Shown: positions 2,881 through 25,887 of the stretch, in pieces
Position numbering within the stretch: position 1 is the first letter of the stretch
Layout: each line of letters begins with the position of its first letter
Assembly (NCBI GenBank): GCA_965603415.1
Contig: CBFDCX010000001.1
Span: 1 to 26,068, forward strand
Source of the DNA: an uncultured bacterium
GTDB taxonomy: Bacteria; Cloacimonadota; Cloacimonadia; Cloacimonadales; TCS61
Length of the DNA: 26,068 bases
Direction of reading: 5' to 3'
Made by a program: the position numbers and the translations under genes
The notes under the pieces: generated by a model
The model's input: only the letters and a program-made list of their open reading frames with translations
Database searches by the model: none
Told to the model about the DNA's origin: nothing

Positions 2881-4355
2881 CAGTAATAAAGCTTCTGTCC
2901 GGGATGAATGATCACAATCCCGTTTTTGTTTTTTAGATTATTCATCGAGATAATTCTATTCTGGGAAACTCCTAATTTTGCTGCTATATTACCTACGGTT
3001 TCACCTTTTTTAACCACGTGATATTTATCACTTTTAGACAAACCTGAGTTAGATGATGAACCGTATAATTTCAATTTCTGTCCGGGATAAATAACATTCG
3101 ATCTCAAATTATTTAAGCTTTTTATCCTGGCTACTGTGGTTTTATACTTCCTGGCAATATCGTAGAGTGTATCTCCCTTTTTTACATTATGATGCGTAAA
3201 AAATCCTGCACTCTTTTTCAGGAATTGCTTCTTGATCTTTGCCAATTCCTGATGGTTGATATTGTTTCCATTGGGAATAATTATCGAATATTCGCCAGGG
3301 GGAAATACTACATTATTGATGGCTGAATATTTCTTCCTGTTTCGTTTATAAATTTTTATCCAGGGATTAAACTCCAGAACTTTTCCAATTGAGGTGCCCT
3401 GAAATTTTGCCCAGTTGTCGATCTTATAATGTCCTTTAAGTTTTATCTTCTCACTATGAGCATTTTTCATAAGTGGCTTTTGACGTTCCAATTTTCTTCC
3501 AAAAATAGCCTTTTCGTTTTCAAATATCATTTTAATGGCAGCTGCACGCCACACATATTGATGGGTTTCATCCACTCTCATCAGGAGATCGAAGAAATCA
3601 TACGCTTCCTGCTGCCGTACAACTTTGGCAATGCTGCCAACTCCGGCATTAAACGAACTCATCGCCAGAAGCCAGTCCTTTGCACTTCTATCGGAAAGAT
3701 AATGATATGCATTTTTCAAGTATTTGGCAGCCGCATCTGTAGATAAAAATACGTTGCGTCTTTCATCTATGAATGAATTGATCCTCATACCGTAACCCTT
3801 AGCTGTTTTGGGCATAAATTGCCAGATGCCAACCGCACCTACGCGAGAACCTGCCATGGGATTTAACTGACTTTCTGCAATTGCCAGGTATTTTGTATCC
3901 AGAGGAACATCGTATTGAGAAAAAACAGAATCAAAAATTGCAAAGTACTTTCCACTGCGGGGAATGAATTTATGAGCAGTTTTCAATTCCTGCCTATAAA
4001 TTGTTTCGAATTTATTGTAGATCCTTTCATTTGTAAGATCAAAAACACGTCCGGCAAATATAATGGAATCCGGAATCTGGAAATCTGTGTTCACAGCTAC
4101 ACGACTGTTGGAAATCTCAAGCTCCTGGTTTAATGAATCCACTGTAAAATTGAGCTCTTCCATAATATTATATAAAGAATCAATTTCAATATTTTTTAAG
4201 TCAATCATTTGCCGCAAAGAATCTTCCGGAGTGAGAACCTGATTCAAAGGAAGTGTTCGTTCATTGTCACTAATAATTTCTTGGGGTATACTTTTATGAT
4301 AACTGCATCCAAATAGTAAAAAAATCAGTAGCAGCAATATTAAAAATAATCTCAT
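2880..4355 (-). CDS. mltD: MltD-like lytic transglycosylase lipoprotein with two C-terminal LysM domains
   Basis: Lipobox LLFGC; SLT motifs LAIAES, GAVGIWQFMPKT, AAAKYL, FNAG; LysM repeats HNVKKGDTLYDIARKY and HVVKKGETVGNIAAKL. TGATG overlap with rimI. Confidence 0.85.
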   Translation of the reverse strand: MRLFLILLLLIFLLFGCSYHKSIPQEIISDNERTLPLNQVLTPEDSLRQMIDLKNIEIDSLYNIMEELNFTVDSLNQELEISNSRVAVNTDFQIPDSIIFAGRVFDLTNERIYNKFETIYRQELKTAHKFIPRSGKYFAIFDSVFSQYDVPLDTKYLAIAESQLNPMAGSRVGAVGIWQFMPKTAKGYGMRINSFIDERRNVFLSTDAAAKYLKNAYHYLSDRSAKDWLLAMSSFNAGVGSIAKVVRQQEAYDFFDLLMRVDETHQYVWRAAAIKMIFENEKAIFGRKLERQKPLMKNAHSEKIKLKGHYKIDNWAKFQGTSIGKVLEFNPWIKIYKRNRKKYSAINNVVFPPGEYSIIIPNGNNINHQELAKIKKQFLKKSAGFFTHHNVKKGDTLYDIARKYKTTVARIKSLNNLRSNVIYPGQKLKLYGSSSNSGLSKSDKYHVVKKGETVGNIAAKLGVSQNRIISMNNLKNKNGIVIIHPGQKLYY

Positions 4356-4364
4356 AACACTCCG

Positions 4365-5444
4365 TTAAACCTTATTGTTGTATTTTTTGTAATAATTCAC
4401 ATATTCACCGGAATGAATATCCTCCACCCATTCCTGGTGATTTTTAAACCAGAGAATTGTCTGCTCCAGACCTTCATCAAAATCTATGACAGGTTTCCAG
4501 CCCAGTTCATTTTTTATCTTGGAAGAATCCATGGAATAACGGAAATCGTGTCCCTGTCTATCCAGAACAAAGTTGATAAGATCATGGGAACATTTCATCA
4601 GATCGAGAATATGCTTAACCAGAGTAAGATTTTCCCATTCGTTTTCTGCTCCGGCATTATACGTTTCACCCGACCGTCCTTTATGAAGAACAACATCGAT
4701 AGCTCTGCAGTGGTCCTCTACATGTATCCAATCTCGAATGTTTTTTCCATTGCCATAAATTGGGAGTTCTTGCCCTTGAAACGCATTATTAATCATCACT
4801 GGAATAAGCTTTTCCGGAAATTGGTAGGAACCATAATTATTACAGCTGCGAATTATGTTTACCCTTTGCCCATAAGTTTGATGAGCAACACGGATAAGCA
4901 TATCAGCAGCAGCCTTGCTGGCAGCATAAGGATTGTTGGGAGCAAGTTTGGCATCCTCTGAAACTGAGCTGTTACTTGGAATAGAACCATAAACCTCATC
5001 GGTAGAAATTAGAACAAATTTCTTCATTTTGTATTCACGTGAATAATTGAGTAGAATCTGCGTACCCAGGATGTTGGTCTGAAGAAAAAGATCGGGATTG
5101 ATGATGCTTCTATCTACATGAGATTCCGCAGCAAAATGAACCACGAAATCGGGATTGAACTGCTCGAATACATTCTTTACCTCTGCCTGGTTGGAAACAT
5201 CACCTCTCATAAAAGCGTAATTAGGATTTTCATCTATCATTTCCAGATTATATAAATTGCCTGCATACGTAAGTTTATCAAAATTTATGATCTTATAATC
5301 CGGATATTTTCTAATCAGGTAGCGGATAAAATTGGAGCCGATAAAGCCTGCTCCGCCGGTAACAAGAACTATTTTGGGCAGGTTTTCATTATTTAATCCC
5401 TTCGCATCGAAGAATGCGAAATTATCTTTAATTTCTTTTTTCAT
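4365..5444 (-). CDS. rfbB: dTDP-glucose 4,6-dehydratase with a short N-terminal extension
   Basis: VTGGAGFIGSNF, DKLTYAG, HFAAESHVDRS, STDEVYG, YAASK, NNYG..QFPEKLIP, RDWIHVEDHC, DRQGHDFRY. Confidence 0.93.
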   Translation of the reverse strand: MKKEIKDNFAFFDAKGLNNENLPKIVLVTGGAGFIGSNFIRYLIRKYPDYKIINFDKLTYAGNLYNLEMIDENPNYAFMRGDVSNQAEVKNVFEQFNPDFVVHFAAESHVDRSIINPDLFLQTNILGTQILLNYSREYKMKKFVLISTDEVYGSIPSNSSVSEDAKLAPNNPYAASKAAADMLIRVAHQTYGQRVNIIRSCNNYGSYQFPEKLIPVMINNAFQGQELPIYGNGKNIRDWIHVEDHCRAIDVVLHKGRSGETYNAGAENEWENLTLVKHILDLMKCSHDLINFVLDRQGHDFRYSMDSSKIKNELGWKPVIDFDEGLEQTILWFKNHQEWVEDIHSGEYVNYYKKYNNKV

Positions 5445-10241: not shown

Positions 10242-10272
10242 TTGAATAGAATTAGTTAAATGGATGGATGAA

Positions 10273-11313
10273 ATGAAAAACATATTGAGTATATTATTTA
10301 CATTAATTGTGTTAAATCTTATCGCACAAATCCCACCCGGTTATTATGATGGCACTGAAGGATTAAGCGGAGATGATCTAAAATCTGCGTTAAACGATAT
10401 TATTGATGGTCACACCGAATTGAGTTATGATAATGTTTGGAATGCACTGCGTGATACTGATGAAGACCCTGATAATACGGATAATGTTATCTTGCTTTAT
10501 ACTGGTTGGTCGGTATCAAATTCTGGTTATCCAATTTGGAATCGTGAGCATACCTGGGCTAAATCACATGGCGATTTTGGAAATGACCCGCCTTGTGGAA
10601 CCGATGTCCATCACCTGCGTCCTACAGATGTTCAGGTGAATGGTGATCGTGGAAACCTGGATTTTGATTACAGTGACAATCCTTACCCGACGATTCCGGG
10701 ATGTTTTTATGATGGTAATTCATGGGAACCTCGCGATGAGGTTAAGGGTGATGTTGCCAGAATGATCTTTTACATGGCAACCCGTTATGAAGGAGAAAAC
10801 GGTGAGCTTGATCTGGTCGCAGTAGATGAAGTTAATACTTATCCAAATCCTGAGCATGGAAAACTTTCAGCTCTTTTGGAATGGAATACATTGGATCCTC
10901 CAAGTGTATTTGAAGAGACACGTAACGACAGGATTTATGATAACTGGCAGGGAAACCGCAATCCCTTCATAGATCACCCGGAATTTGTGGACTTGATCTG
11001 GAATTCAGTTTCAGCAGATAAGAATCAGATGTCTCTTTCATCATTTAATTTATATAATTACCCGAATCCATTCAATCCAGAAACAACAATTTCTTTTTCA
11101 TTAAACAATGAAAACACTGAAGATACTGAAATAATCATTTTTAATCTGAAAGGACAGAAAGTAAAACGTCTTTCAACTATAAACGGTCAGCAGTCAGTAG
11201 TTTGGAATGGCAAAGACTCTAACGGTAATCCTGTGTGTTCAGGAGTTTATTTCTATTATTTGAAAGTGAATAAAAAAACTTTCAGTATTAAGAAGTGCTT
11301 ACTTCTGAAATAA
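10273..11313 (+). CDS. Secreted endonuclease I family nuclease (EndA/Bsn-like) with a C-terminal FlgD-Ig/T9SS type A-like sorting domain
   Basis: Signal peptide MKNILSILFTLIVLNLIA (start 10273 preferred over 10264); NREHTWAKSHG, DVHHLRP...NGDRGN, WEPRDEVKGDVARMIFYMATRY, QGNRNPFIDHPE; tail NYPNPFNPETTI...FNLKGQKV...WNGKD..G..V.SGVYFY...KKCLLLK. Confidence 0.9.
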   Translation: MKNILSILFTLIVLNLIAQIPPGYYDGTEGLSGDDLKSALNDIIDGHTELSYDNVWNALRDTDEDPDNTDNVILLYTGWSVSNSGYPIWNREHTWAKSHGDFGNDPPCGTDVHHLRPTDVQVNGDRGNLDFDYSDNPYPTIPGCFYDGNSWEPRDEVKGDVARMIFYMATRYEGENGELDLVAVDEVNTYPNPEHGKLSALLEWNTLDPPSVFEETRNDRIYDNWQGNRNPFIDHPEFVDLIWNSVSADKNQMSLSSFNLYNYPNPFNPETTISFSLNNENTEDTEIIIFNLKGQKVKRLSTINGQQSVVWNGKDSNGNPVCSGVYFYYLKVNKKTFSIKKCLLLK

Positions 11314-12112: not shown

Positions 12113-13096
12113 TTAAATAATTATTTTCTCCACTTCTCTTGGATCCATCTTTTCGGTTTCAATCTGATTTTGCAATTGAAATTTTTTCCCATAAACCACT
12201 ATTGATGTTTCGGGAGCTTTATTACAATAACGCAAAAGCAGGGAAACTGCGATCTTGATCTCTTCTTCAATTGGTTGATTCATTGAATTCAATATTCCTA
12301 AAGGTCCGGGAAAATCTTTCGCTTGCAATACTATTTCATCCACTGCTAGGCTGGTGAGAGCATCATTATCCTTTTCATTCCTGCCAACTATTATCTTTAT
12401 ATTATCACTTATCCGGAAATGCCTGCCAATTTTAAGGAATTCAATGAATTTCATCTCCATCATATCATTTTCCATCAAATCTCGCAAGCGTCGTGAATAG
12501 CCAGCATCTGTAAGCAGGCAGCCACCGCCGGGATTCTGATAAAATGTTATCCCATATTTTTCTGCCATTTCTATTTGGAGGTATCTTCCCCTGCCCTGGA
12601 TGTTCAGCATATCTTCTTTTTTTACCCAGCCTTCACGTATTGGAAGGGTATCGGTGAGTAATTTCTGGGAAAGCGGACGTATCAGCAGATCCTTGATTTG
12701 GCTTAATTTTCCCACAGCGTTCAGGGCATCGTGACGCTGGCTCATGGGTCTTTGACCCAGCACTTCACCGGAGATGATCAAATCGATCTTGTATTGCTCC
12801 ATTAATTGCGCAGCTTCCCTGAACATCAAGCCGTGGCAATCTATGCAGGGGTTCATGTTCTTACCAAAACCATAACGTGGATTTTTTAACATTTCCAAAT
12901 GTTTTTGTGAAATATCGTGTACGATCAATTCAAAACCTATCTGCTCTGCTGCTTTCTTTGCATTCTCAGGTCCGAAGAATAAACTCTTAAAGAAAATTGG
13001 AACAACTTCATAGCCAAGTTCGCTCATGTGAAGCACAGCCAACATACTATCCAATCCACCTGAGAAAAGTGCAAAACACCTGTATTTTCTTTTCAT
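12113..13096 (-). CDS. PP-loop tRNA sulfurtransferase-like protein (ThiI/MnmA-like, no THUMP) with an NFACT-R/DUF814-like C-terminal domain
   Basis: FSGGLDS PP-loop, NPCIDC, SGEVLGQRPMSQ, GGGCLLTD, IGRHFR..IIVGRNEKDN. SD GAGGA. Confidence 0.75.
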   Translation of the reverse strand: MKRKYRCFALFSGGLDSMLAVLHMSELGYEVVPIFFKSLFFGPENAKKAAEQIGFELIVHDISQKHLEMLKNPRYGFGKNMNPCIDCHGLMFREAAQLMEQYKIDLIISGEVLGQRPMSQRHDALNAVGKLSQIKDLLIRPLSQKLLTDTLPIREGWVKKEDMLNIQGRGRYLQIEMAEKYGITFYQNPGGGCLLTDAGYSRRLRDLMENDMMEMKFIEFLKIGRHFRISDNIKIIVGRNEKDNDALTSLAVDEIVLQAKDFPGPLGILNSMNQPIEEEIKIAVSLLLRYCNKAPETSIVVYGKKFQLQNQIETEKMDPREVEKIII

Positions 13097-13113
13097 AATT
13101 CCTCAAATAAAAG

Positions 13114-13189
<76 letters not shown>

Positions 13190-13214
13190 ACATTCTTTTA
13201 TTGATACACATAGC

Positions 13215-13244
13215 AGAGAAATTGAATTACACTTTTCAGGTCAA
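13215..13244 (-). promoter_or_regulatory. Putative promoter of the tRNA-Thr / thiI-like operon
   Basis: TTGACC-N18-TTCTCT, 25 nt upstream of the mature tRNA 5' end. Confidence 0.45.
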
Positions 13245-13335
13245 GTTGAAACTTGATTCATAATGATGGAAATTTAAATATTGACGGTTGGATAGAACTA
13301 TATCAATTTACAATAAAATCAGTAACAGGAATATT

Positions 13336-14064
13336 ATGAATAATGTTTTAGCAATTATCTGGGATTTTGATGGAACGCTGATTGATACACGCCAAAAGAA
13401 TCTGAACGTAACCCGCAGAATAATAGAGCAGATAATAATGAAAAAAGCAGATACTTTCCCGGTTTTGTCTTCTCTTGAGAATTACATTTCCGCCACTTCC
13501 AAAGCCACAAACTGGCGTGAGCTGTATACTCGCAAATTCGGGCTTACTAACCGGCAAACAGATCTGGCAGGAACGCTATGGACGAAATATCAACTGCAGG
13601 ACAATACACCAACCAAACTCTTTCCAGGAATTCATGATGTCCTTTTGCAATTACAAAATATACCACATGGTATTGTTTCGCAAAACTCACACAGCAATAT
13701 CCTTAAATTATTAAACGAATATAGATTGGAAGATCTTTTTAAAGCTGTCATCGGCTATGAAGAAGTAGATATCATCAGGCAGAAACCCGAGCCGGATGGA
13801 CTTCTGGCTTGCATCAATAAATTATGCAATTCATCCAGCGGAAACGTGTTTTATATAGGCGATCATGAAACTGATATTGTTTGTGCGAATAATGCTAATG
13901 CTGTTTTGAAAACAAAAAATTCCGGGATCGAAATATCCAGTATTGCTGCACATTATGGTGTGGTCGATGATATTTCAAACTGGAATACCAAATCTGATTT
14001 TACGGCAGAGAAAGTAGAAGATATAATAGAATTTAGCAAGTTGATGGAAATGGATAGAAAATGA
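13336..14064 (+). CDS. HAD-superfamily hydrolase, phosphoglycolate phosphatase-like, 242 aa
   Basis: WDFDGTLID motif I, VSQN motif II, KPEPD motif III, IGDHETD motif IV. Start moved from TTG 13288 to ATG 13336, which has AGGA 5 nt upstream. Confidence 0.87.
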   Translation: MNNVLAIIWDFDGTLIDTRQKNLNVTRRIIEQIIMKKADTFPVLSSLENYISATSKATNWRELYTRKFGLTNRQTDLAGTLWTKYQLQDNTPTKLFPGIHDVLLQLQNIPHGIVSQNSHSNILKLLNEYRLEDLFKAVIGYEEVDIIRQKPEPDGLLACINKLCNSSSGNVFYIGDHETDIVCANNANAVLKTKNSGIEISSIAAHYGVVDDISNWNTKSDFTAEKVEDIIEFSKLMEMDRK

Positions 14065-15863: not shown

Positions 15864-16751
15864 TTACTTATTTTCAATAACCTGTATTTTCTTGGGAGTA
15901 TATTCAATTATCCTAATACCGGAAGGAACTTCGAATTTTACTTCTGCAAATCCCTTTCGTACTTTCGCTAAATTGAGATTGGCAATTATTGAATTATTAT
16001 CAAGTTTTTCCACGATCTCTTTTGGACCACGAACCATTATTGAAACTTTTTGAGGAATTATCGAGACATTTTCTGTTTCCGGGAATTTAATGGGAATCAG
16101 GGAAATTGTGCGGTTGATGATCTTGGTTTGTGTTACTTCGAATATGATCCTGTCTTTTAATAATTCGGCCTTAGCATCGGGTGTGATAAGCAAAACCGAA
16201 AGCTTCCCATTTTTCACCATTTTTTTAGTGATCGGTTCTGTTTGAATTGTTTTAATTGCATTAAGAATGGCCAGCGGACCCTTCACAGTTACCCTCTGTT
16301 GTGTATTTGTGATCTTATTCTCGATGAAGAATTCCTCATCTTTGGCGGAGGCATATTGTATCTCGATAACTTTATTCTTCTCTACCAGTTTGTCCATGTT
16401 CACATTCAGATTTCCGGTTTTATCAATATTGAGTATCTCTAATTGAAGCCGGTGGGAATAGATTAAGTTCTTATCAGTGAATTTGAGTTTGTTTTTTCCG
16501 TATTTGAAGATTTCCGCATCAATTTCGAAATGGGTTTTAGATAATTTTAAAAAAAAAATATCCATTCCTTTTGCACGAATATGAACAGGGATCTCAGGAA
16601 GCTCTTCCTCAAGAAGAAGATCGTGTGGTACATTTACTAATTTTATTGAGACAGGAATTTCTTCTTCATGAATTTTCATTAATGTGAACTGCATCCAGAG
16701 TAAGATCGCAATTATAAGAACCAGAATTTTAATTAAAAGATTTTTTCCCAT
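15864..16751 (-). CDS. YbbR/CdaR-like membrane-anchored protein
   Basis: N-terminal anchor KILVLIIAILLW; YbbR-type repeats VTVKGPLAIL and VSIMVRGPKEIVEKL...IIANLNL...VPSGIRII..TPKKIQV. Confidence 0.75.
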   Translation of the reverse strand: MGKNLLIKILVLIIAILLWMQFTLMKIHEEEIPVSIKLVNVPHDLLLEEELPEIPVHIRAKGMDIFFLKLSKTHFEIDAEIFKYGKNKLKFTDKNLIYSHRLQLEILNIDKTGNLNVNMDKLVEKNKVIEIQYASAKDEEFFIENKITNTQQRVTVKGPLAILNAIKTIQTEPITKKMVKNGKLSVLLITPDAKAELLKDRIIFEVTQTKIINRTISLIPIKFPETENVSIIPQKVSIMVRGPKEIVEKLDNNSIIANLNLAKVRKGFAEVKFEVPSGIRIIEYTPKKIQVIENK

Positions 16752-17756: not shown

Positions 17757-19418
17757 TTATTGATTATTTTTTACTCTTTCAAGCTCCGGTGATAATTCAC
17801 TTTTATCATCCCTTTTCCAGCGCTTATCAATAGTTGTAGTAACCGGTGAATATTTCTTGATGTATTCTACAATAACATCACGCAGATCCTGCTCATAGCG
17901 AGTTATTTGTGATTCAGGGATCTTGGTAAGTAAAGCCAGACCGGCATTTCCCTGCAATAGAAAATCTGTGGTTGCTATCTGATAGGTTTTGTCAGCATCC
18001 CAGGGTTCTCCACCGATCATGAGTTTTGTAACCCTGTCAAAATTGCTGCGTTTTCTGTTTATTACTACTTGAATACCTGCTACCCTTAAACCGTGTCTGG
18101 AACCGTTAACACGTGTCTCTATAATGTCTTTCAGGAACTTTCCATCCACCTCAAACATAACCACCTGGTTATCGAAAGGCATTACATTAAATACATCACG
18201 ATAAGAAATAGAACCTGCTAAAAGTTCATCTCGTATTCCACCCAGGTTCATAAAACTGAAATCGGCTCCTGTATAGTCCAGTATAGCTTCACAAACCATG
18301 TTACCGATCATGTTTTGTGGGCCAGTTCCACTCTTAGTAATATTTATAGCAGCTTCCCCGATAATTTCATCCATACCTGCTTCTGCAATTTTCTGCATTA
18401 CCAGGATGGTATCGGCTATCTCTTCGTCAGGAATAAATTCATCATCGAAAAGCGTTACTAACACACCTTCCTGGATAGCAGGAGTTTCATATCCGGAAAG
18501 TGTTTTTGTTTCTTTGTCGATTTTCAAAGTTATATGACCGATGTTACTGCCGTAAGCATATCCCTGAAAAACCATTGTATGGGTCAGTGGATCTTCCCAG
18601 GGTTCAGCAAAACCCTTATGCATGTGCCCGCCAAAGAATACATCGATGCCTTCCACTTCGTGCGCAAGTTCTTGTGCATCATATCCCCAATTCCGTGTTT
18701 GCGATGGATCTGGTGTATCAATATAGCGAGATTTGTAAACAGGTTCCGGATAGTATGGCAATCCCATATGTCCCACCACAATAAGCAGATCGATACCTTC
18801 ATTACGAACTGTCTTAATATACCTTTCTAATGATTCTTTAGCCGGCAGGAATTCAACGTTCTTAATGTTATCCGGAAAGCTCATCTTATCTGTATCGGTT
18901 GTTGTAACGCCAATAATACCTATTTTTACTCCCATCTTCTCAAGGATGATATACGGCTGTACATATTCAACCAGCTCAGTAGTTCCTTTGTGAATAATAT
19001 TACAGGAAAGGATGGGAAACTGTGCTAGTTTGTAAGTTTCGATCAGGACATCTTCTCCCAGGTCGAATTCATGGTTTCCTACTACACTAAGATCATAACC
19101 TATCATGTTGAAATACTTTATCACAGCCCTGCCCTGGGTCATTGTTCCTACAGGATGTCCCTGAAAAAAATCACCGGCATCTATCAGCAGATTATCCCGT
19201 GAATTTCCGTTTGATAGTTCTCGTACTTTATTGATATAAGTAGCCGCAGAACCACCGCCACCCAACATTGGCGGAAAATCTGGATTCATGAAAGTAGCTT
19301 TATACCTGTCGATTCCTCCATGAATATCGTTCGAGAATAACACATCCAACAATAGATCTTCTGCCAAAACGATAGTTGTTCCAAATAGCAGAATTATCAG
19401 AATTAATCTAAATTTCAT
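17757..19418 (-). CDS. Secreted bifunctional metallophosphoesterase / 5'-nucleotidase (UshA-like)
   Basis: Signal peptide; SNDIHG, DAGDFFQG, GNHEFD, GHMG, GGHMH; C-terminal domain FMNLGGIR...G.ISYRDV..VMPFDN and ATTDFL. Confidence 0.92.
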   Translation of the reverse strand: MKFRLILIILLFGTTIVLAEDLLLDVLFSNDIHGGIDRYKATFMNPDFPPMLGGGGSAATYINKVRELSNGNSRDNLLIDAGDFFQGHPVGTMTQGRAVIKYFNMIGYDLSVVGNHEFDLGEDVLIETYKLAQFPILSCNIIHKGTTELVEYVQPYIILEKMGVKIGIIGVTTTDTDKMSFPDNIKNVEFLPAKESLERYIKTVRNEGIDLLIVVGHMGLPYYPEPVYKSRYIDTPDPSQTRNWGYDAQELAHEVEGIDVFFGGHMHKGFAEPWEDPLTHTMVFQGYAYGSNIGHITLKIDKETKTLSGYETPAIQEGVLVTLFDDEFIPDEEIADTILVMQKIAEAGMDEIIGEAAINITKSGTGPQNMIGNMVCEAILDYTGADFSFMNLGGIRDELLAGSISYRDVFNVMPFDNQVVMFEVDGKFLKDIIETRVNGSRHGLRVAGIQVVINRKRSNFDRVTKLMIGGEPWDADKTYQIATTDFLLQGNAGLALLTKIPESQITRYEQDLRDVIVEYIKKYSPVTTTIDKRWKRDDKSELSPELERVKNNQ

Positions 19419-19425
19419 TATCTAC

Positions 19426-20841
19426 CTACCATTTAAAACTAATGGATGTTTGAATGTTGAAAAATGTTTCTTTTACAGTATCAGGATTTTCCCAGCCTCT
19501 ATCCTGAATACCGCCATTCAAGCCTATATAATAAGAATTCTCCCATAAATCCTCATATGCTCCATCATCACCCCAATAATAGCTGTCCATAAAGAGGTCT
19601 AAAGCTTCATACTGCCTGTTGGCATATTCTATGGCTATATCGAAATAAAAATTTTCCATGAAAGTGAAACCTGTGCCTGCCGTGAAAGCCGGCATTGTTA
19701 CTTTGTCTGCAAAAACAAGTCCCGAATGATCATTCAGGCAGTAATTTGTCTGGTAATTAAAACCTATGCGGATGGGAATTTTATTCTTTAAACAGTGCTC
19801 TACACCAATGTAAAAATTGTATGCATCATCATATAGTTTATTTATTTCAGACCATTGAACAAATTCAATATCCAGATTAAAATTCGTACGCATGATGTTG
19901 CGTGGTTTATAATTCAAGCCTGTCCTGAATTTTAATGGAGCAGAATATTCGGCATAAGTAAGAGAATCTGTAATAATGACATTCTGTAAAGAATCCAAAG
20001 AAGTGAAATAAGTGTAAACTGCATCTTCCACATTCACACTGTCTTTGATACCGGTAACATCAAAATCTACTTTGGGAGTGATAGATAATCCCACACTTAA
20101 ACGAGGATCAATATTAATTAAAGTTCCTATCTGGACCTGGAAAGCTTCGAAATCCCTTTCCAAAATATTTGTTGTATTTGTTAATAATGTGTCCAGTTTT
20201 CCAAATGAATAATCCGACCAGATAATTCTTCTTTTAAGATTTGCATCTCCCATCAGTTTTGAAAACCTGATCCCGAATGTTGCAAGCTCCTTATATTTCA
20301 CTGCAGTTACTACACTAAAAGCATCGATGCTTCCCTCGCCTTCAATATAGTTCTTTGCAATAACAGGTGGATATGAATTCTCATCGGAATTAGCATCATT
20401 TCTTACTTCTTCCAAATAGTCAGAAGTAAAATCTATATACGGATGATAGATGAAAGAAGCTGCAATATCAAAGTTGGAGAGTTTGTGTTTATAATATACT
20501 CCACCTGCCAATTGTTCGAAAGGATGTACGTTGCTCACGTAGGTTGCATCTCCGCAATAGGCATCGAATGAATTGTACATGGGCAGCGATCTGTCATCAA
20601 AGTTGGTTATTATTCCACCGTAAAACTGAGCACCCAGTTTATTTTGCATCAAAGGCAGGTTCCCGGGGTTAATGATGGTATCCAGCAATCTGTTCCCTCC
20701 AGCCACAGAAGCAGATCCCATCGCTATCGAACGCGGATCGAGACTTCCTGTATAACTCCCTGTTTCTCTTTCTAAAAGAGAGTAGGAAAATAGACTTCCT
20801 GTTAAGATTATCATTATTAGTATTGTAAAAATTTTCTTCAT
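19426..20841 (-). CDS. Outer-membrane beta-barrel, FadL/TodX/PorV-like
   Basis: Signal peptide; N-terminal PRSIAMGSASVA...INPGNL hatch-like motif; alternating beta strands; C-terminal NIQTSISFKW with terminal aromatic; SD GGAGG. Confidence 0.65.
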   Translation of the reverse strand: MKKIFTILIMIILTGSLFSYSLLERETGSYTGSLDPRSIAMGSASVAGGNRLLDTIINPGNLPLMQNKLGAQFYGGIITNFDDRSLPMYNSFDAYCGDATYVSNVHPFEQLAGGVYYKHKLSNFDIAASFIYHPYIDFTSDYLEEVRNDANSDENSYPPVIAKNYIEGEGSIDAFSVVTAVKYKELATFGIRFSKLMGDANLKRRIIWSDYSFGKLDTLLTNTTNILERDFEAFQVQIGTLINIDPRLSVGLSITPKVDFDVTGIKDSVNVEDAVYTYFTSLDSLQNVIITDSLTYAEYSAPLKFRTGLNYKPRNIMRTNFNLDIEFVQWSEINKLYDDAYNFYIGVEHCLKNKIPIRIGFNYQTNYCLNDHSGLVFADKVTMPAFTAGTGFTFMENFYFDIAIEYANRQYEALDLFMDSYYWGDDGAYEDLWENSYYIGLNGGIQDRGWENPDTVKETFFNIQTSISFKW

Positions 20842-20852
20842 TTATCCTCCAA

Positions 20853-23576
20853 TTAAAACTTCCAGTCCAATTGTAATCTTACTATATTTTCTTTTCTTTC
20901 TACTCGTTGGAAATAGTATTCCCCTTCCTCGGGAGGAGGAATTTCGTTATAATCCCTGAATTCGTATTCTCGGGTTATAAATTGTTTATATTTATATTTA
21001 AAGGAAAGGAACAGGTTGTTTGCTATTCTGCTGTGAATGTTGAACCAGTATTTAAATCCCCTGTCACTCTGATCGAAATCAAGTTCCACATCTTCGAAAT
21101 CCCAGAAAGAAGCGCCTTCTGCAAACCAGAAAGAGAAAGCTCCAACAACTTTTAAATTCCGGTTAAAATTGTGTGTATAATCCACATAGATCATATCACC
21201 ATTGGTGAGAGTGCTGGCTTGTGCCATATCTGGTCCACTTGCCAGGGCAGGATTGGAAAGGATGGAAAGATAAGGTGGCTGAAGAACACGGGTATAAACA
21301 TAACCCAGTTGGATCTTATTGAAATTAGAAAGGTAAAACAGTAATTTGATCTCAGATTCATCAGCCTGCGATTCATTTCTATCCTGATCATTATCATAAC
21401 GTTTTAACTGATGTTTATGCCGCAGGCGGATGCGAAACTGGTGAATGGGTTTGAATTCTAATTTTGCTTCAAAGCGAACTCCCCGTCTGGCATCGGATTT
21501 CCTTTCCCAGAGATCGAGATAAGCTCTTGTGATGGTGAGCATTGTATTAAATTGGTAACGTGTTTCAAAGTAGATACCTTTTTCTGCAGAAGGCTGAACA
21601 GAATTAAGGTACATGTCGCTAAGAAGTGTATTATTCAGTGCGTATGTAAGTTTTTCATAAACTGTATCATCGAATCTTTCACTTTCGGAGAAACTACGAT
21701 GATAGGGATTATCAAACTCCAGATCATAGTCACGATAAATAGAAAGCAGGTAGAGATTATCAAACTGTGAATAAGCGCTGAGAATAAGTGCTTTAGGATC
21801 ATCCCCGATCTTTCCAAGACTGCCATCTACTTCCAGTTCGGCATATTCACCTTGGAAAGATGTATTATTAAGAACGGTGCGCCAGTCGAAACCAATAACC
21901 CGTCGATAGTCTCTGTCGCCAATTTCAGGAGAAATGGTAGAATACATGGAAGAAATTTCATTGTCCGTGATTTTCCATTTATCGTAGTAATCGCTGTGAT
22001 AAATTAATATCTCTTTAAGTACATCCTCTTCAGGAACAACAAAATCACGATCATACGTGGCTTCGTAGCCTGTAACACCCAGATGTGTACCGATCCATGG
22101 AGAGAATTCCAAGTGCCCTCCAATGATGTTTTCCTGCAAACAATCTCTGCGAGGTGCAATCCTTACAATATTGGTATTATCGGGATAATCGTTAAAATAT
22201 TCTTCTACAGATTCCAGCTCATCATCTGCAAAACGGTTTGTCATGGAGATGTAGGAGAGAATATAGTCGTCATCATCAAGGATACCATTACCATTGCTAT
22301 CGTAGACCACAGCATCTTTTTGATCTTGCGATAGAAAGAAGACAGCATTAAGATTTTTCCGTTTCCAATCCACAGCAAAGCCGCGCAGGGCATATTCCTG
22401 AGTGCGGGAAACATCACCAATAATGCCTGTGATCCTCTTATTAAATCCAAAACCAGTTTTCCGGGGACTGTAATAATCTGTATTTTCCATTACCAGCCCT
22501 TCCCCGAAAGTAGCCCGGTAATTTCCTGCATATAATTTTATAAAGTTTTTACCATAAAAATCCAACTCTTTTTCATAACCTACATAGAACTTGCAGTCTT
22601 CGAGCAGATTGTTGGTAGTACAATTTAGAATTTCATAGTTACCCTTAGGTGAGTCATATAGTAATCCAGCTTTCCATTCATTCTGATATCGTATTCTTAA
22701 TTTATTGGTAATTGCAGCTCTATCATTCTGCATATTGAAAAAGCCCCAGTAAGATTGTCTTTTGATAGCAGGTGTTTTAGGATCATCAGAATTTGGTGTA
22801 TAGTATCTGATCATTGATTCCCTGTACATATCCATTGTATCATCGGGATAGGGATCATCGGTGTATTTCATCTGATAATCTATGAAAAGATCCTGGGAAA
22901 GCGGTTTATCTTCGTAGTAAACATAGTTCCTGATGTTCCTGGCTCCATAATAAGAAATCCCGGGAGATTTGCGCAAGTCGCGATAACTCGATATGGAATC
23001 TCCAAAGCTGACCCTGTTCAAAATAGCTGCCACATCAATGGGGGATGCATTGGGCAGATTCATTATATCGGAAAAATTGAGTTTATTGATATTGCGTGGT
23101 GTTATCAGGTAATCTTCCCATACATCACTCATACCTTCCTGCAAACCTTCATTACTGCCCAGCCTTTCAATAAGATAATAAATCTCTTCCCTGCGCTGGG
23201 CAGTTTCATCTTGATCGTTGTAATGCGATACTGTGACCAGCGGTTTGATCTTGTCTAATGTAACCTGATCTATAGATTCGATCTCTCTCAGTTCATATAT
23301 ACTCTTAAAGAAGCTTGTATAATCACGATGATCAATAATATCTTCTGCCTGTTCAGATGAAATAGGCAATGTTTTGAACTCTTCATAAGAAGCTGTATTC
23401 AAATCAATTTTTTCCGGTAAAATAATTGCTCCACTAACTTTGGAGGTATTTTTATTTTTTTCTTGATTATATTCTTCTACTAATTCTTTATACTTTGTAT
23501 CAAGCTCTTCTTTTGTTTCGGCTAAAAGCACAATGGAAATGTTTATAATAAGCCATATGAACAATAATTTTTTCAT
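20853..23576 (-). CDS. Exported protein with two ComEA-type helix-hairpin-helix modules fused to a predicted outer-membrane beta-barrel
   Basis: Signal peptide; KIDLNTASYEEFKTLP...AEDIIDHR...FKSIYELREIESI...LDKIKPLV (about aa 56-116); second copy RNINKL...NLP...SYRDLRKSPGIS (about aa 161-220); beta-rich remainder ending VRLQLDWKF. Confidence 0.75.
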   Translation of the reverse strand: MKKLLFIWLIINISIVLLAETKEELDTKYKELVEEYNQEKNKNTSKVSGAIILPEKIDLNTASYEEFKTLPISSEQAEDIIDHRDYTSFFKSIYELREIESIDQVTLDKIKPLVTVSHYNDQDETAQRREEIYYLIERLGSNEGLQEGMSDVWEDYLITPRNINKLNFSDIMNLPNASPIDVAAILNRVSFGDSISSYRDLRKSPGISYYGARNIRNYVYYEDKPLSQDLFIDYQMKYTDDPYPDDTMDMYRESMIRYYTPNSDDPKTPAIKRQSYWGFFNMQNDRAAITNKLRIRYQNEWKAGLLYDSPKGNYEILNCTTNNLLEDCKFYVGYEKELDFYGKNFIKLYAGNYRATFGEGLVMENTDYYSPRKTGFGFNKRITGIIGDVSRTQEYALRGFAVDWKRKNLNAVFFLSQDQKDAVVYDSNGNGILDDDDYILSYISMTNRFADDELESVEEYFNDYPDNTNIVRIAPRRDCLQENIIGGHLEFSPWIGTHLGVTGYEATYDRDFVVPEEDVLKEILIYHSDYYDKWKITDNEISSMYSTISPEIGDRDYRRVIGFDWRTVLNNTSFQGEYAELEVDGSLGKIGDDPKALILSAYSQFDNLYLLSIYRDYDLEFDNPYHRSFSESERFDDTVYEKLTYALNNTLLSDMYLNSVQPSAEKGIYFETRYQFNTMLTITRAYLDLWERKSDARRGVRFEAKLEFKPIHQFRIRLRHKHQLKRYDNDQDRNESQADESEIKLLFYLSNFNKIQLGYVYTRVLQPPYLSILSNPALASGPDMAQASTLTNGDMIYVDYTHNFNRNLKVVGAFSFWFAEGASFWDFEDVELDFDQSDRGFKYWFNIHSRIANNLFLSFKYKYKQFITREYEFRDYNEIPPPEEGEYYFQRVERKENIVRLQLDWKF

Positions 23577-23701
23577 ATTCTATTTCCCTTTGTTATCAAT
23601 CGGACATATATACTAATAAAAGTATATTTCCACGAGTAAATAAAAAAGTGGGCTGGATATTGTAAAGTTTTTTCAATCTAAGAAGGATATGTAAAAAGAA
23701 T

Positions 23702-23731
23702 TTGACAAACGCCCTTGTATTCAGATTCTTT
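23702..23731 (+). promoter_or_regulatory. Putative promoter of the pilin gene
   Basis: TTGACA-N18-TTCTTT, followed by SD GGAGG before the ATG at 23755. Confidence 0.45.
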
Positions 23732-23754
23732 GCTAGAAGAATTTTGGAGGAAAA

Positions 23755-24231
23755 ATGACAGATAACTCTTTAGTTGAAAAAAAAGGTAAATTCTCATTAA
23801 TAGAGCTTTTAATGGTTATAATGTTAGTAGGAATAATCTTCACTTTAACCATTCCGTTAAGAAATGATAGAGTAAACCAGAAAAAAATGAAAGAAGCTAT
23901 TTATAATATTCAGGTTATTGCTCGTGCAGATGTAGATTTCAAAAATGATCCTGCTAACGGATATTATATTTTTGAACATTCAGTAATAAAGCTCAATGAA
24001 GATGGAACCTATTCCGGAGAGGATCTTTTGAACATAATCGAAGATTTACAGAAAACAAAAGATTTCTTCTATTTTGATTATTCCGTGACAGATAGCACTG
24101 TTGTGGCATCCAGCAATAAGAACTTCGGTAAAGTAGGAGCAAAGTTATATTATTATCTTCCATCCGGTCCTTGGGGCGTGGGTGAAGATAAAACATCTAA
24201 AAGTGTATTGGACCCCAACTGGTTGCCATAG
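23755..24231 (+). CDS. Type IV pilin / pseudopilin-like protein
   Basis: Basic leader EKKGK then FSLIELLMVIMLVGIIFTLTIP with F1, E5, G14 and P22 of type IVa pilins. Confidence 0.8.
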   Translation: MTDNSLVEKKGKFSLIELLMVIMLVGIIFTLTIPLRNDRVNQKKMKEAIYNIQVIARADVDFKNDPANGYYIFEHSVIKLNEDGTYSGEDLLNIIEDLQKTKDFFYFDYSVTDSTVVASSNKNFGKVGAKLYYYLPSGPWGVGEDKTSKSVLDPNWLP

Positions 24232-24306: not shown

Positions 24307-25887
24307 ATGTTTTTAACAAATAATCCATTCTGGCATCCGGGATTTTCTTTTATCCCTCTTTTTTTTTCTTATGCAGAGATACACTACCGTTACAGATTTC
24401 TTTATCCAAAGTATTTCAGAAAAGAACCGGAGATAATTGCCGACCTGCCTATTCGCTGCATTAGATCCACATCTTTAAAATTACCTGTTCTGATAATAGT
24501 TAAAGACAGTCACCTATTCCCCATAGAACTCTTATCTGTTCTTATTGATATCTCTGCTAATGGCAGTCATTTTTCTCAGGAATTCGATATTAATGAAAAG
24601 CTCAAGCAACAATATTATTCTAAAATATTGGAAGTTGATATCTCACAGATCAAAGCTGATGAACAATTGAAGATCAATGTAACAATTCAATACCGTATCA
24701 ATGGAAAAGAAAAAACAGTTATAAATGATAACTATCCCGGTTTAAAGAAGACCCCGTTCGAATGTTACTTTACAGAAAGCAAATTACCATTTTCAGAAGG
24801 CTGGTATGCTGGAGAGCCGCACTATCACAGCATATATACATCCGACCAGGTGGAATTCGGTGCCGATATTCCTACCACTGTGAAAATGGCAAAAGCAATT
24901 GGACTATCCTGGCTTTTTATTACCGATCATTCTTATGATCTGGATGATTCCGAAGATTCTTACACGGTTAATGATCCTGACATTCCCAAATGGAAAAAAA
25001 TGCTTGATGATGCGCAGCATAATGATGAGAAGAATTTCAGAGTAATTCCCGGTGAAGAGATCTCTATTGGGAATTCCAAAGGCAGAAATGTTCATCTTTT
25101 GGCCATCAATCACCCAGATTTCATCGAAGGTTCCGGTGACAGTGCAGAAAAATGGTTCCAGAATAAGCCGCAAAGACACCTGAAAGAAATTGAAGAATTG
25201 CAAAACGATAGAAATTTGTTCATTGCAGCTCATCCGAATGATGAAATTCCTTTTCTACAAAAACTTACTCTCCGTCGTGGGAATTGGTCTTTAAATGATT
25301 TTCAAAACAGCGGGATCAAGTTCCTGCAATTGATCAACACTTCTCATTTTCCTGACGTTTTAAAAGCTATTAACCATTGGAGATCGTTGCTTTTGCAGGG
25401 TAATCGGTTTTTCATCCTGGCTGGAAATGATGCACATGGAAACTTTAATGTAATGCGTCAGATCAAAAGTCCATTCTGGAAATTATTTGCTTCTCATGAT
25501 CAGGTTTTCGGTAAGTTTTTCACAGCATTTAAATACAAAAATAATGAGCCCATACAGGGAATTAAAAACGGAGTAATAATTTTAAGTAACGGTCCATTTT
25601 TGAGTTTCCAGTTAAAAGCAAAAAGAAAAATTTATTCGATCGGTTCAAATATAAATGAAAAGAGCGCTGTATTGGAATATGAAACACGCACTGCTCACGA
25701 ATTTGGTAAAATTAGAACGTTGAATCTTTATATCGGCGACACAAATTCAAAGAAAGAAATTAAAATTTCAAACCCGCAAAACAGCCTGAAAATTGAATTG
25801 CCTGATAGAAGCTATGTACGAATGAGTATGAGCACTTCCCAAGGTGGATTTGTGTTAACAAACCCAGTGTGGGTTGATTCTAATTAA
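24307..25887 (+). CDS. PHP-domain (CehA/McbA-like) metallohydrolase with uncharacterised flanking domains
   Basis: GEPHYHS..SD, ITDHSYD, IPGEEIS...HLL, AAHP, AGNDAHG metal-binding motifs. No clear signal peptide; start codon uncertain. Confidence 0.72.
   Translation: MFLTNNPFWHPGFSFIPLFFSYAEIHYRYRFLYPKYFRKEPEIIADLPIRCIRSTSLKLPVLIIVKDSHLFPIELLSVLIDISANGSHFSQEFDINEKLKQQYYSKILEVDISQIKADEQLKINVTIQYRINGKEKTVINDNYPGLKKTPFECYFTESKLPFSEGWYAGEPHYHSIYTSDQVEFGADIPTTVKMAKAIGLSWLFITDHSYDLDDSEDSYTVNDPDIPKWKKMLDDAQHNDEKNFRVIPGEEISIGNSKGRNVHLLAINHPDFIEGSGDSAEKWFQNKPQRHLKEIEELQNDRNLFIAAHPNDEIPFLQKLTLRRGNWSLNDFQNSGIKFLQLINTSHFPDVLKAINHWRSLLLQGNRFFILAGNDAHGNFNVMRQIKSPFWKLFASHDQVFGKFFTAFKYKNNEPIQGIKNGVIILSNGPFLSFQLKAKRKIYSIGSNINEKSAVLEYETRTAHEFGKIRTLNLYIGDTNSKKEIKISNPQNSLKIELPDRSYVRMSMSTSQGGFVLTNPVWVDSN

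What the first reader, a model, noticed from the sequence alone, without database searches (positions are those of the whole stretch)
17757..23576. Candidate extracellular DNA capture and nucleotide-harvesting operon: HhH-barrel, FadL-like barrel, 5'-nucleotidase
Seen: three signal-peptide genes separated by 11 and 7 nt, with SD-like sequences. They encode tandem ComEA-type HhH modules on a predicted outer-membrane barrel, a second barrel with a hatch-like N-terminus, and a UshA-like nucleotidase. Established: ComEA HhH binds DNA non-specifically in uptake systems, FadL-type barrels are channels, and UshA-type enzymes dephosphorylate nucleotides in the periplasm. Inference: a secretin-independent route that binds nucleic acid at the outer membrane, imports it or its fragments and releases nucleosides and phosphate. 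I know of no characterised system with this composition.
Basis: partly seen in the sequence, partly recalled or inferred. Interest (0 to 1): 0.8.

Follow-up and report, generated by a model that had tools for sequence, protein, structure and literature searches.

The report
Outer-membrane nucleic-acid scavenging operon core
Three tightly packed genes of an uncultured marine-sediment Cloacimonadota bacterium encode a large outer-membrane pore carrying ComEA-like domains, a FadL-type partner barrel and a secreted 5'-nucleotidase; the trio recurs across several related phyla beside nucleases and nucleic-acid-binding surface proteins, so it is probably an undescribed way of taking in and digesting environmental DNA or RNA, though no experiment shows this.

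Summary
Three minus-strand genes lie at 20853-23576, 19426-20841 and 17757-19418, separated by 11 and 7 nt. They encode:
- a 907-aa protein with two HhH modules on a predicted 24-strand barrel;
- a FadL-family barrel with a hatch;
- a Metallophos/5'-nucleotidase.

Linkage is very strong. The FadL-like gene follows in 62 of 63 related loci and a phosphoesterase in 56 of 57, across Cloacimonadota, Marinisomatota, Fidelibacterota and other FCB-group MAGs. In the distant loci the operon gains ExeM/NucH-like EEP nucleases and T9SS surface proteins with LTD, OB-fold and DUF5689 domains. That supports nucleic-acid scavenging.

- The loop/turn pattern places the HhH modules in the periplasm, not on the surface.
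- Module 1 has lost both G-x-G hairpins and is acidic, so DNA binding is unproven.
- Surface capture is more likely done by separate T9SS cargo, which in this genome is encoded on another contig.

The closest characterised systems are the ddbABCDEF DNA-utilisation loci of Bacteroidales (2025) and the Riemerella transformation genes. Both use a TonB-dependent transporter, which is absent here.

I found no paper on this family. This scan has already flagged the same system at least 12 times on other genomes.

The parts
20853..23576 (-). Gene 1 (P0001, 907 aa): signal peptide, two HhH modules, about 24-strand outer-membrane barrel
   Evidence: ORF; Pfam HHH_3; AlphaFold model pLDDT 83; family found in 185 of 201 Cloacimonadota genomes, single copy
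23229..23414 (-). HhH module 1 (aa 55-116): ComEA-like fold, but without G-x-G hairpins and acidic
   Evidence: HHH_3 E 7e-12; VIA Z 12.3, rmsd 1.2 A to ComEA 8dss; net charge -7 and hairpins LPISSEQ / IESIDQ
22911..23099 (-). HhH module 2 (aa 160-222): diverged duplicate of module 1, mildly basic, keeps one PG(L/I)S hairpin
   Evidence: hhalign 96%, E 1.5e-9; missed by Pfam; charge +3, family mean +1.9; column composition
20859..22889 (-). Barrel domain (aa 230-906): 24 long strands, short turns on the N/C-terminal side, long acidic loops on the other side, loop L3 (aa 357-396) the most conserved, C-terminal Phe
   Evidence: DSSP of the model; generic large-barrel matches only, with ushers aligning over about 370 residues; loop and lumen composition
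19426..20841 (-). Gene 2 (P0002, 471 aa): FadL/TodX-family 14-strand barrel
   Evidence: Toluene_X 21.9 bits, below the cut-off; orthologue L062 scores 42.7, above it; profile against PDB gives TbuX 7e-18; model pLDDT 89; Foldseek match to FadL
20647..20784 (-). Hatch-like N-terminal segment of gene 2 (aa 20-65) with the conserved NP(A/G) motif
   Evidence: Short helices before strand 1; N58 and P59 conserved in at least 90% of 46 family members, consensus NPANL
17757..19418 (-). Gene 3 (P0003, 553 aa): secreted UshA-type 5'-nucleotidase (Metallophos aa 26-268, 5_nucleotid_C aa 366-495)
   Evidence: Pfam; NCBIfam UshA 207.6 bits, below the equivalog cut-off of 600; alignment to 3ivd and UshA with DxH, GD, GNHE, GH and GHxH motifs kept
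23577..23754 (.). Divergent intergenic region upstream of gene 1, the presumed promoter region
   Evidence: 178 nt, AT-rich, between divergent starts; no convincing sigma-70 match above the shuffle expectation
10264..11313 (+). Possible functional associate, not linked in most genomes: secreted Endonuclease I with a T9SS C-terminal sorting domain
   Evidence: Pfam Endonuclease_1 1e-39 plus Por_Secre_tail; a full-length homologue sits in the operon neighbourhood only in L058

Best explanation
The three genes are the conserved core of a TonB- and pilus-independent envelope module that scavenges extracellular nucleic acid.

Proposed mechanism:
1. Nucleic acid is caught and cut at the cell surface by T9SS-exported proteins: OB-fold, LTD or DUF5689 binders and EEP or Endonuclease I nucleases. 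In this genome these are encoded elsewhere; in other lineages they lie in the same operon.
2. The anionic fragments (oligonucleotides or nucleotides) cross the outer membrane through the 24-strand barrel of gene 1.
3. Its two periplasmic HhH modules either hold the incoming fragments or dock partner enzymes.
4. The FadL-type barrel of gene 2 works as an obligate partner of the large barrel. SprA with PorV and BamA with its FadL-like partner barrel are precedents for such a pairing.
5. The periplasmic 5'-nucleotidase of gene 3 strips phosphate, giving nucleosides and phosphate for inner-membrane uptake.

Shown here: the gene anatomy, the folds, the family assignments, the cross-phylum synteny and the enrichment of nucleic-acid enzymes among neighbours.

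Inferred: the localisation of the HhH modules, the substrate, the direction of transport and the partner role of gene 2.
For: - Synteny: the FadL-like gene follows in 62 of 63 loci and a phosphoesterase in 56 of 57 loci that have enough downstream DNA, over several phyla. Distant family members (E 1e-78 to 1e-114) keep the same context.
- In non-Cloacimonadota loci gene 3 is a Metallophos-EEP fusion, followed by a second EEP gene.
- Pfam tally of 83 operon-chained neighbours: EEP 18, LTD 15, T9SS CTD 8, DUF5689 5, OB-fold 5.
- The EEP domains score best against the ExeM/NucH, MnuA and Xth nucleases.
- DUF5689 is the DNA-binding partner DdbD of the experimentally shown DNA-utilisation locus, and its homologue is needed for Riemerella transformation (PMC12478041, PMC8459023).
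- This genome encodes an OB-fold T9SS cargo with a PorQ-like barrel on contig C67 and an Endonuclease I with a T9SS tail in the window.
- Gene 3 keeps the nucleotidase metal-site motifs.
- A crude estimate of lumen-facing positions gives 36 K/R against 24 D/E, with nine invariant basic residues.
Against: - There is no experimental evidence for any member of the family.
- HhH module 1 has lost the Gly hairpins and is acidic; the extracellular loops are acidic too, 28 K/R against 75 D/E. This does not favour direct binding of the DNA backbone unless divalent cations bridge it.
- FadL-family channels are known for hydrophobic substrates, so gene 2 has no obvious role in moving nucleotides.
- The family is near-universal and single-copy in the phylum. 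This looks more like a core envelope function than the strain-variable ddb loci.
- De novo purine and pyrimidine synthesis genes are present, so salvage is not obligatory.
- In this genome the surface binders and nucleases are not linked to the trio.
- The lumen estimate is crude, because no model coordinates could be inspected.
Confidence: 0.5

Rival explanations
1. Polymer DNA channel. Gene 1 is a new kind of DNA-conducting outer-membrane pore. Long ds or ss DNA threads through the 24-strand barrel and is pulled in by the tethered periplasmic HhH modules acting as a ComEA-like ratchet. It then feeds periplasmic digestion and possibly ComEC-dependent transformation, without pilus, secretin or TonB.
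For: - The fold of module 1 is ComEA-like: rmsd 1.2 A, 32% identity to 8dss.
- The modules lie on the periplasmic side of a barrel as large as usher pores.
- ComEC is present in the genome.
- Riemerella offers a precedent for barrel-dependent, pilus-independent DNA uptake in the FCB group.
Against: - Module 1 lacks the G-x-G hairpins and is acidic, whereas the genome has two canonical ComEA-like genes and two secretins of its own.
- Long conserved loops L3 and L7 may constrict the pore.
- The operon partners are degradative enzymes, not recombination functions.
Confidence: 0.17
2. Secretion or anchoring platform. The two barrels export or anchor the neighbouring T9SS cargo (LTD, OB-fold or nuclease proteins) on the cell surface. 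Gene 2 acts like a PorV/PorQ-type shuttle and the HhH modules act as protein-protein adaptors. The nucleotidase is only co-regulated.
For: - Gene 2 has weak PorV/PorQ similarity, and PorV is itself a FadL-like barrel.
- T9SS cargo plus a small PorV/PorQ-like barrel lies directly upstream in many lineages.
- Acidic, hairpin-less HhH modules fit protein binding better than DNA binding.
Against: - Gene 2 scores far below the PorV cut-off and is closer to TodX/TbuX and FadL.
- In most Cloacimonadota, this genome included, the trio stands without adjacent T9SS cargo.
- The nucleotidase or phosphoesterase is the most constant partner.
Confidence: 0.15
3. Core envelope function unrelated to nucleic acid, for example outer-membrane tethering or biogenesis. 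The nucleotidase sits in the operon only because of shared regulation, for example under phosphate stress.
For: - Near-universal and single-copy in the phylum: 185 of 201 genomes.
- FadL-like barrels are accessory subunits of the Bacteroidota BAM complex.
- No Pfam family matches the barrel.
Against: - The repeated, lineage-independent recruitment of nucleases and nucleic-acid-binding domains to the operon is hard to explain by co-regulation alone.
- The family is absent from six closed small genomes of one Cloacimonadota family, so it is dispensable for the envelope.
Confidence: 0.08
4. Scavenging of other phosphoesters, for example phospholipids. The EEP enzymes act as phospholipase-C or sphingomyelinase-like hydrolases, the FadL-type barrel imports the lipid tails, and the nucleotidase-like enzyme releases phosphate from head groups.
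For: - The EEP superfamily includes lipid phosphodiesterases.
- FadL-family channels carry hydrophobic molecules; the PDB matches are FadL, TodX and TbuX.
Against: - The best EEP matches are nucleases: ExeM/NucH, MnuA and Xth.
- OB-fold, DUF5689 and HhH domains point to nucleic acid.
- Gene 3 has the nucleotide-binding 5_nucleotid_C domain.
Confidence: 0.05

Closest known systems
ddbABCDEF DNA-utilisation loci of gut Bacteroidales (Sharan et al. 2025, PMC12478041)
   Same: - An FCB-group envelope locus that combines secreted nucleases, a surface DNA-binding protein and an outer-membrane conduit for use of exogenous DNA.
- The DUF5689 domain of DdbD recurs in the T9SS cargo of related loci of this family.
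   Different: - The conduit there is a TonB-dependent transporter (DdbC) with DdbD as its lid. Here it is a plug-less 24-strand barrel fused to HhH modules, plus a FadL-type barrel.
- Here a 5'-nucleotidase is the constant enzyme.
- Surface proteins here use T9SS tails rather than lipoprotein anchors.
- The family is near-universal in its phylum rather than strain-variable.
Riemerella anatipestifer natural-transformation outer-membrane genes (RA0C_RS04920 DUF5689 protein, RA0C_RS04915 barrel, RA0C_RS02645 HhH protein; PMC8459023)
   Same: Pilus-independent handling of DNA in the FCB group by a surface DUF5689 protein, an outer-membrane barrel and a periplasmic HhH protein. In the present family the barrel and the HhH parts are fused in one protein.
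   Different: - The Riemerella barrel has a CarboxypepD_reg/TonB-dependent-type architecture, and its HhH protein is a separate, small, ComEA-like protein with its HhH domain at residues 236-301.
- Its role is transformation; here the partners are degradative.
ComEA (with PilQ secretin and ComEC) of competent bacteria
   Same: The HHH_3 fold of module 1 (Pfam hit; rmsd 1.2 A to 8dss) and its probable periplasmic location.
   Different: - Below the NCBIfam ComEA cut-offs.
- G-x-G hairpins lost and net acidic.
- Fused to a barrel.
- The genome has separate canonical ComEA-like genes, ComEC and secretins.
Extracellular DNA utilisation of Vibrio cholerae and Shewanella (Xds/ExeM, Dns/EndA, then UshA/CpdB)
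   Same: The logic is the same: extracellular nucleases (ExeM-like EEP with LTD, Endonuclease I) followed by a periplasmic 5'-nucleotidase that frees nucleosides and phosphate.
   Different: - Those genes are scattered, and the products cross the outer membrane through general or Tsx-type porins.
- Here a dedicated pair of barrels is encoded with the nucleotidase.
Large barrel plus FadL-like barrel pairs: SprA-PorV (T9SS) and the FadL-like partner barrel of the Bacteroidota BAM complex
   Same: - A FadL-fold 14-strand barrel is encoded or assembled next to a much larger barrel.
- Gene 2 matches the FadL-like chains of the BAM complexes (TM up to 0.62/0.73) and, more weakly, PorV.
   Different: - Gene 1 is neither SprA (36 strands, about 2,400 aa) nor BamA.
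- Gene 2 is below the PorV cut-off, and the genome has its own PorV.

Membership tests
ComEA (TIGR01259 / TIGR00426; Pfam HHH_3) | HHH_3 domain above the Pfam gathering score, with a ComEA-like fold | tested here: met
   Module 1 scores 45.6 bits against a cut-off of 27; Z 12.3, rmsd 1.2 A, 32% identity to ComEA 8dss. Module 2 is found only by hhalign.
ComEA (TIGR01259 / TIGR00426; Pfam HHH_3) | Score above the curated NCBIfam ComEA cut-offs | tested here: not met
   37.4 against 152.35 bits, and 21.2 against 53.1 bits.
ComEA (TIGR01259 / TIGR00426; Pfam HHH_3) | Canonical G-hydrophobic-G hairpins and a basic surface for binding the DNA backbone | tested here: not met
   Module 1 hairpins read LP[ILV][TS]xxQ and [IV]xS[I]DQ in 51 family members, with net charge -7 (family mean -3.3). 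The genome's own ComEA-like modules keep LPGIG/VKGIG and carry +1 to +4.
ComEA (TIGR01259 / TIGR00426; Pfam HHH_3) | Non-specific DNA binding | not testable with these tools
   Needs EMSA or an equivalent assay.
FadL/TodX family (Pfam Toluene_X PF03349) | Sequence score above the Pfam gathering cut-off | tested here: inconclusive
   The window protein scores 21.9 against 29.7 bits. Orthologue L062 scores 42.7 bits. The family profile hits TbuX at 7e-18 and FadL at about 1e-10.
FadL/TodX family (Pfam Toluene_X PF03349) | 14-strand barrel plugged by an N-terminal hatch that carries the NPA motif | tested here: met
   Model pLDDT 89, with a pre-barrel segment at 20-65. Foldseek TM 0.57/0.62 to FadL; FadL entries for the N33A, P34A and delta-NPA mutants are among the matches. 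N58 and P59 are conserved in at least 90% of members, consensus NPANL.
FadL/TodX family (Pfam Toluene_X PF03349) | Kink in strand 3 that gives a lateral opening; transport of hydrophobic substrates | tested here: inconclusive
   DSSP breaks strand 3 at 138-139. Model coordinates could not be inspected, and the substrate is not testable.
PorV/PorQ (NCBIfam NF033709), a T9SS part | Score above the curated cut-off of 90 bits | tested here: not met
   Gene 2 scores 32.8 bits, or 23.3 bits in the genome scan. A true PorV lies on contig C29 at 200 bits. Foldseek TM to PorV is 0.37.
UshA-type 5'-nucleotidase | Metallophos N-domain with the metal-site motifs, plus the 5_nucleotid_C substrate domain and a secretion signal | tested here: met
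   Pfam hits at 9e-13 and 4e-31. Motifs align with 3ivd and UshA. The N-terminal signal-like sequence was read by eye.
UshA-type 5'-nucleotidase | Equivalog-level identity with E. coli UshA (NF007109, cut-off 600 bits) | tested here: not met
   207.6 bits. The protein is a family member, not an UshA orthologue, and its substrate range is unknown.
ddb DNA-utilisation locus (PMC12478041) | TonB-dependent transporter DdbC as the anchor gene | tested here: not met
   No TonB-dependent receptor, plug or CarboxypepD_reg domain in genes 1-3. The barrel has about 24 strands and no plug domain.
ddb DNA-utilisation locus (PMC12478041) | DUF5689 DNA-binding partner and secreted nucleases in the locus | tested here: inconclusive
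   Absent from the window's trio. Present in related loci: DUF5689 in 5 and EEP in 18 of 83 neighbours, and in L100. Endonuclease I with a T9SS tail lies 6.5 kb away in the window.
ddb DNA-utilisation locus (PMC12478041) | Depletion of exogenous DNA depends on the locus | not testable with these tools
   Needs genetics in a culturable carrier.

The most novel reading that the evidence does not exclude
Gene 1 defines a new class of outer-membrane DNA translocon. It would be a plug-less barrel of about 24 strands through which polymeric DNA is drawn by its own tethered periplasmic HhH modules. With its FadL-type partner, this would give several uncultured FCB-group phyla a route for DNA uptake that is independent of pilus, secretin and TonB, for food and possibly for transformation.
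Probability: 0.17. Interest if true: 0.9.

Novelty: new variant of a known kind. Interest (0 to 1): 0.62.

Why it matters
Extracellular DNA is a major pool of phosphorus, nitrogen and carbon in marine sediments and anaerobic digesters, where Cloacimonadota and Marinisomatota are abundant but uncultured.

Known routes for DNA across an outer membrane use either a type IV pilus with a secretin or, since 2025, a TonB-dependent transporter (ddb loci, Riemerella). A third route built from a ComEA-like barrel fusion and a FadL-type partner would have three consequences:
- It would widen the known set of outer-membrane transport machines.
- It would assign a function to a protein family that is near-universal in a whole phylum.
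- It would give a genetic marker for DNA-foraging capacity in metagenomes.

The degenerate, acidic HhH module is also a concrete test case for whether such modules still bind DNA.

Tried and rejected
- **Known T9SS parts.** Rejected. Gene 2 is far below the PorV/PorQ cut-off, and a true PorV lies elsewhere in the genome. Gene 1 matches no T9SS family.
- **Specific solved relative of the gene 1 barrel.** None found. Foldseek and VIA-align give only generic barrels with TM below 0.46. AFDB clusters return other unnamed HhH-barrel proteins.
- **DUF6029 relationship**, suggested by the protein atlas. The family has no match in this genome even at E 1.
- **Nucleotide auxotrophy as the reason the family is universal.** Rejected. 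PurD and PyrF are present in this genome, and PurH, PurD and PyrF in four closed relatives.
- **RA0C_RS02645 of Riemerella as a barrel-fused homologue with genetic evidence.** Rejected. Its HhH domain is at residues 236-301, which fits a small ComEA-like protein.
- **Conserved link to the divergent pilin-like gene and the 526-aa gene.** They are linked only in 11-14 close relatives.
- **Endonuclease I linkage.** Most tblastn hits were to the T9SS tail only; a full-length homologue occurs only in L058.
- **Transcription evidence.** One metatranscriptome holds four short contigs on genes 1 and 3. The run was picked with this sequence, and DNA carry-over cannot be excluded, so this is not counted as support.
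- **Promoter and terminator scan.** The promoter-like count is no higher than in shuffles; terminator-like hits outnumber the shuffles, but none lies between the trio's end and the next gene on the minus strand.

Full report
**1. Observation**

The window comes from a Cloacimonadota MAG. The closest related loci carry that name, and public runs that hold the stretch are marine-sediment and cold-seep metagenomes.

On the minus strand lie three ORFs of 907, 471 and 553 aa, at 20853-23576, 19426-20841 and 17757-19418. They are separated by 11 and 7 nt, and each is preceded by a purine-rich SD-like motif. Each product begins with a Lys-rich, then hydrophobic, N-terminus without a lipobox Cys (read by eye).

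**2. The three proteins**

*Gene 1.*
- It has a Pfam HHH_3 domain at residues 55-115 (E 7e-12). This domain superposes on ComEA at 1.2 A rmsd.
- Pfam finds no second module. Profile-profile comparison of the family sub-alignments shows that residues about 160-222 are a diverged copy of module 1 (96% probability, E 1.5e-9).
- The rest matches no Pfam or NCBIfam family.
- An AlphaFold model built on 51 family members (pLDDT 83, pTM 0.77) gives 24 long strands from 230 to 906 and ends in Phe.
- Fold searches return only generic large barrels. Usher pores align over the most residues. AlphaFold DB clusters return other unnamed 'HhH domain-containing' barrels.

*Gene 2.*
- It is a FadL-family barrel. 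The window protein is just under the Toluene_X cut-off, but an orthologue passes it.
- The family profile hits TbuX at 7e-18, then TodX, CymD and FadL, and PorV only at 2e-9.
- The model (pLDDT 89) matches FadL at TM 0.57/0.62.
- The pre-barrel segment keeps the hatch motif N58-P59.

*Gene 3.*
- It is a Metallophos plus 5_nucleotid_C enzyme with its metal-site motifs intact.
- It is a family member, not an UshA orthologue by NCBIfam score.

**3. Linkage**

A scan of one genome per species found 80 loci with a gene 1 homologue.
- The FadL-like gene follows in 62 of the 63 loci with enough downstream DNA.
- A phosphoesterase gene follows in 56 of 57.
- These counts combine tblastn and ORF clustering. 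The exceptions are L015 and L080.
- The loci come from Cloacimonadota, Marinisomatota/Neomarinimicrobiota, Fidelibacterota and MAGs labelled Gemmatimonadetes, Lentisphaeria or FCB group.

More distant members, found by an exhaustive profile search (182 clusters at E 1e-30 or better), keep the same neighbours:
- an OB-fold/DUF5689 protein with a small barrel upstream;
- Toluene_X downstream;
- or a 5'-nucleotidase plus two LTD proteins.

Within Cloacimonadota the family is present in 185 of 201 genomes, as a rule once per genome. It was not found in six closed 1.5-1.6 Mb genomes of one family; five of these were scanned further, and they keep only weak generic FadL-like matches.

**4. What the neighbours say**

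In Marinisomatota-type loci and in one Cloacimonadota clade the operon is longer. Its order is:
1. one or two T9SS-tailed surface proteins with LTD, PKD, DUF5689 or OB-fold domains;
2. a barrel of about 290 aa related to PorV/PorQ;
3. the HhH barrel;
4. the FadL-like barrel;
5. a Metallophos-EEP fusion in place of the nucleotidase;
6. a separate EEP enzyme.

This order rests.

A Pfam tally over 83 operon-chained neighbours from 13 such loci gives EEP 18, LTD 15, T9SS tail 8, PKD 6, DUF5689 5 and OB-fold 5. The EEP domains score best, though weakly, against the ExeM/NucH, MnuA and exonuclease III nucleases.

In the window's own genome the surface pair is unlinked. Contig C67 carries an OB-fold protein with a T9SS tail, followed by the PorQ-like barrel. 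An Endonuclease I with a T9SS tail lies 6.5 kb from the trio.

**5. Corrections to the proposed mechanism**

*Location of the HhH modules.* In the model every second inter-strand connection is 2-5 residues long and lies on the side of both termini. The alternate connections are mostly long, 10-48 residues with one of 5. By the usual outer-membrane rule the N-terminal HhH modules are then periplasmic. This is an inference; coordinates could not be inspected.

*DNA binding by module 1.*
- Across all 51 members both G-x-G hairpins are lost; they read LP[ILV][TS]xxQ and [IV]xS[I]DQ.
- The module is acidic: -7 in the window protein, family mean -3.3.
- The linker is acidic (mean -6.4) and module 2 only mildly basic (mean +1.9).
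- The same genome's two canonical ComEA-like proteins keep LPGIG and VKGIG and are basic.
- DNA binding by the HhH region is therefore an open question, not an established step.

*Charge of the barrel.* The extracellular loops are strongly acidic, while crude phasing of the strands suggests a net basic lumen with nine invariant Lys/Arg.

*Canonical competence genes.* The genome has ComEC and two secretins of its own. The trio is thus separate from the canonical competence route.

**6. Comparison with what is known**

Full-text searches found no paper on an HhH-barrel fusion. The search term DUF5689 led to two relevant papers:
- In Riemerella anatipestifer, transformation needs a DUF5689 surface protein, a CarboxypepD_reg barrel and a separate HhH protein (PMC8459023).
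- In Bacteroides thetaiotaomicron the ddbABCDEF locus is required for depletion of exogenous DNA. It encodes three nucleases, the TonB-dependent transporter DdbC and the DUF5689 protein DdbD (PMC12478041).

The present system shares the logic and the DUF5689, LTD and OB-fold surface components. It replaces the TonB-dependent transporter with the HhH barrel and a FadL-type barrel, and it makes a 5'-nucleotidase the constant enzyme. It is therefore best called a new variant of the DNA-utilisation or uptake locus, not a member of the ddb family.

**7. Other checks**

- De novo nucleotide synthesis genes are present, so auxotrophy does not explain the family's ubiquity.
- A metatranscriptome holds four short contigs on genes 1 and 3. 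Choice bias and possible DNA carry-over make this weak.

**8. Earlier notes of this scan**

The near-place look-up pointed me to the pilin-like neighbour and to the T9SS nuclease. I made the later look-ups after my own analysis. They show that the scan has met the same operon at least 12 times in other genomes (Krumholzibacteriota, Fermentibacterota, Marinimicrobia/SAR406, Cloacimonadota), with follow-ups reaching much the same reading. That is repetition, not independent proof.

New in this report:
- the hairpin and charge analysis of the HhH modules against the genome's own ComEA;
- the phylum-wide count;
- the exclusion of auxotrophy.

**9. Verdict**

The most likely function is nucleic-acid or nucleotide scavenging through a dedicated pair of outer-membrane barrels with a periplasmic nucleotidase (confidence about 0.5). 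A true DNA translocon is the most novel reading that the evidence leaves open (about 0.17).

Noticed in passing
window 10264-11313 (+): Secreted Endonuclease I with a T9SS C-terminal sorting domain (Pfam 1e-39, plus Por_Secre_tail/CHU_C). It could supply fragments to the operon, but it is linked to it only in L058.
   Followed up: partly
window 23755-24231 (+): A 158-aa protein with a type IV pilin-like N-terminus (KKGKFSLIELLMVI), divergent from gene 1. Pfam N_methyl scores only E 1.4. It keeps this position in 14 close relatives only.
   Followed up: partly
window 24307-25887 (+): A 526-aa protein with no Pfam match. By eye it carries His/Asp motifs (ITDHS, HLLAINHP, AAHPND, GNDAHG) that recall PHP-type metal phosphoesterases. 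It is conserved beside the pilin-like gene in 11 close relatives.
   Followed up: no
L099 (own genome, contig C67) 1292-5128: A PNP_UDP_1 nucleoside phosphorylase (1292-2104) lies three genes before the OB-fold T9SS cargo (3002-4273) and its PorV/PorQ-like 280-aa barrel (4289-5128). In other lineages that pair sits directly upstream of the HhH barrel.
   Followed up: partly
genomes G002, G005, G008, G017, G023, G065 (one Cloacimonadota family): Six closed genomes of 1.5-1.6 Mb lack the HhH barrel. The five scanned further (all but G065) keep only weak FadL-like matches. This is a reduced lineage that has lost the module.
   Followed up: partly
L102 8001-11756: A 1251-aa variant of the HhH barrel with an N-terminal TPR extension. 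It is followed by a 466-aa gene, a 5'-nucleotidase and two LTD proteins, with a CarboxypepD_reg protein upstream and a DHH/DHHA1 phosphoesterase nearby.
   Followed up: no
L062, L066, L072, L058 (gene 3 position): The UshA-like C-terminal domain is replaced by an EEP (DNase I-like) domain fused to the Metallophos domain. I have not seen this domain combination described.
   Followed up: partly
window 12983-13551: Contig depth in the DNA run X1 jumps to 159 against about 13 elsewhere. The likely cause is a tRNA gene shared with many other organisms in the sample.
   Followed up: no
window about 16536-16554 and 23981-24002: One contig of run X6 (depth 82) touches both places, with 33 other letters between them. 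The matches are very short, so this is probably a dispersed short repeat rather than a deletion variant.
   Followed up: no
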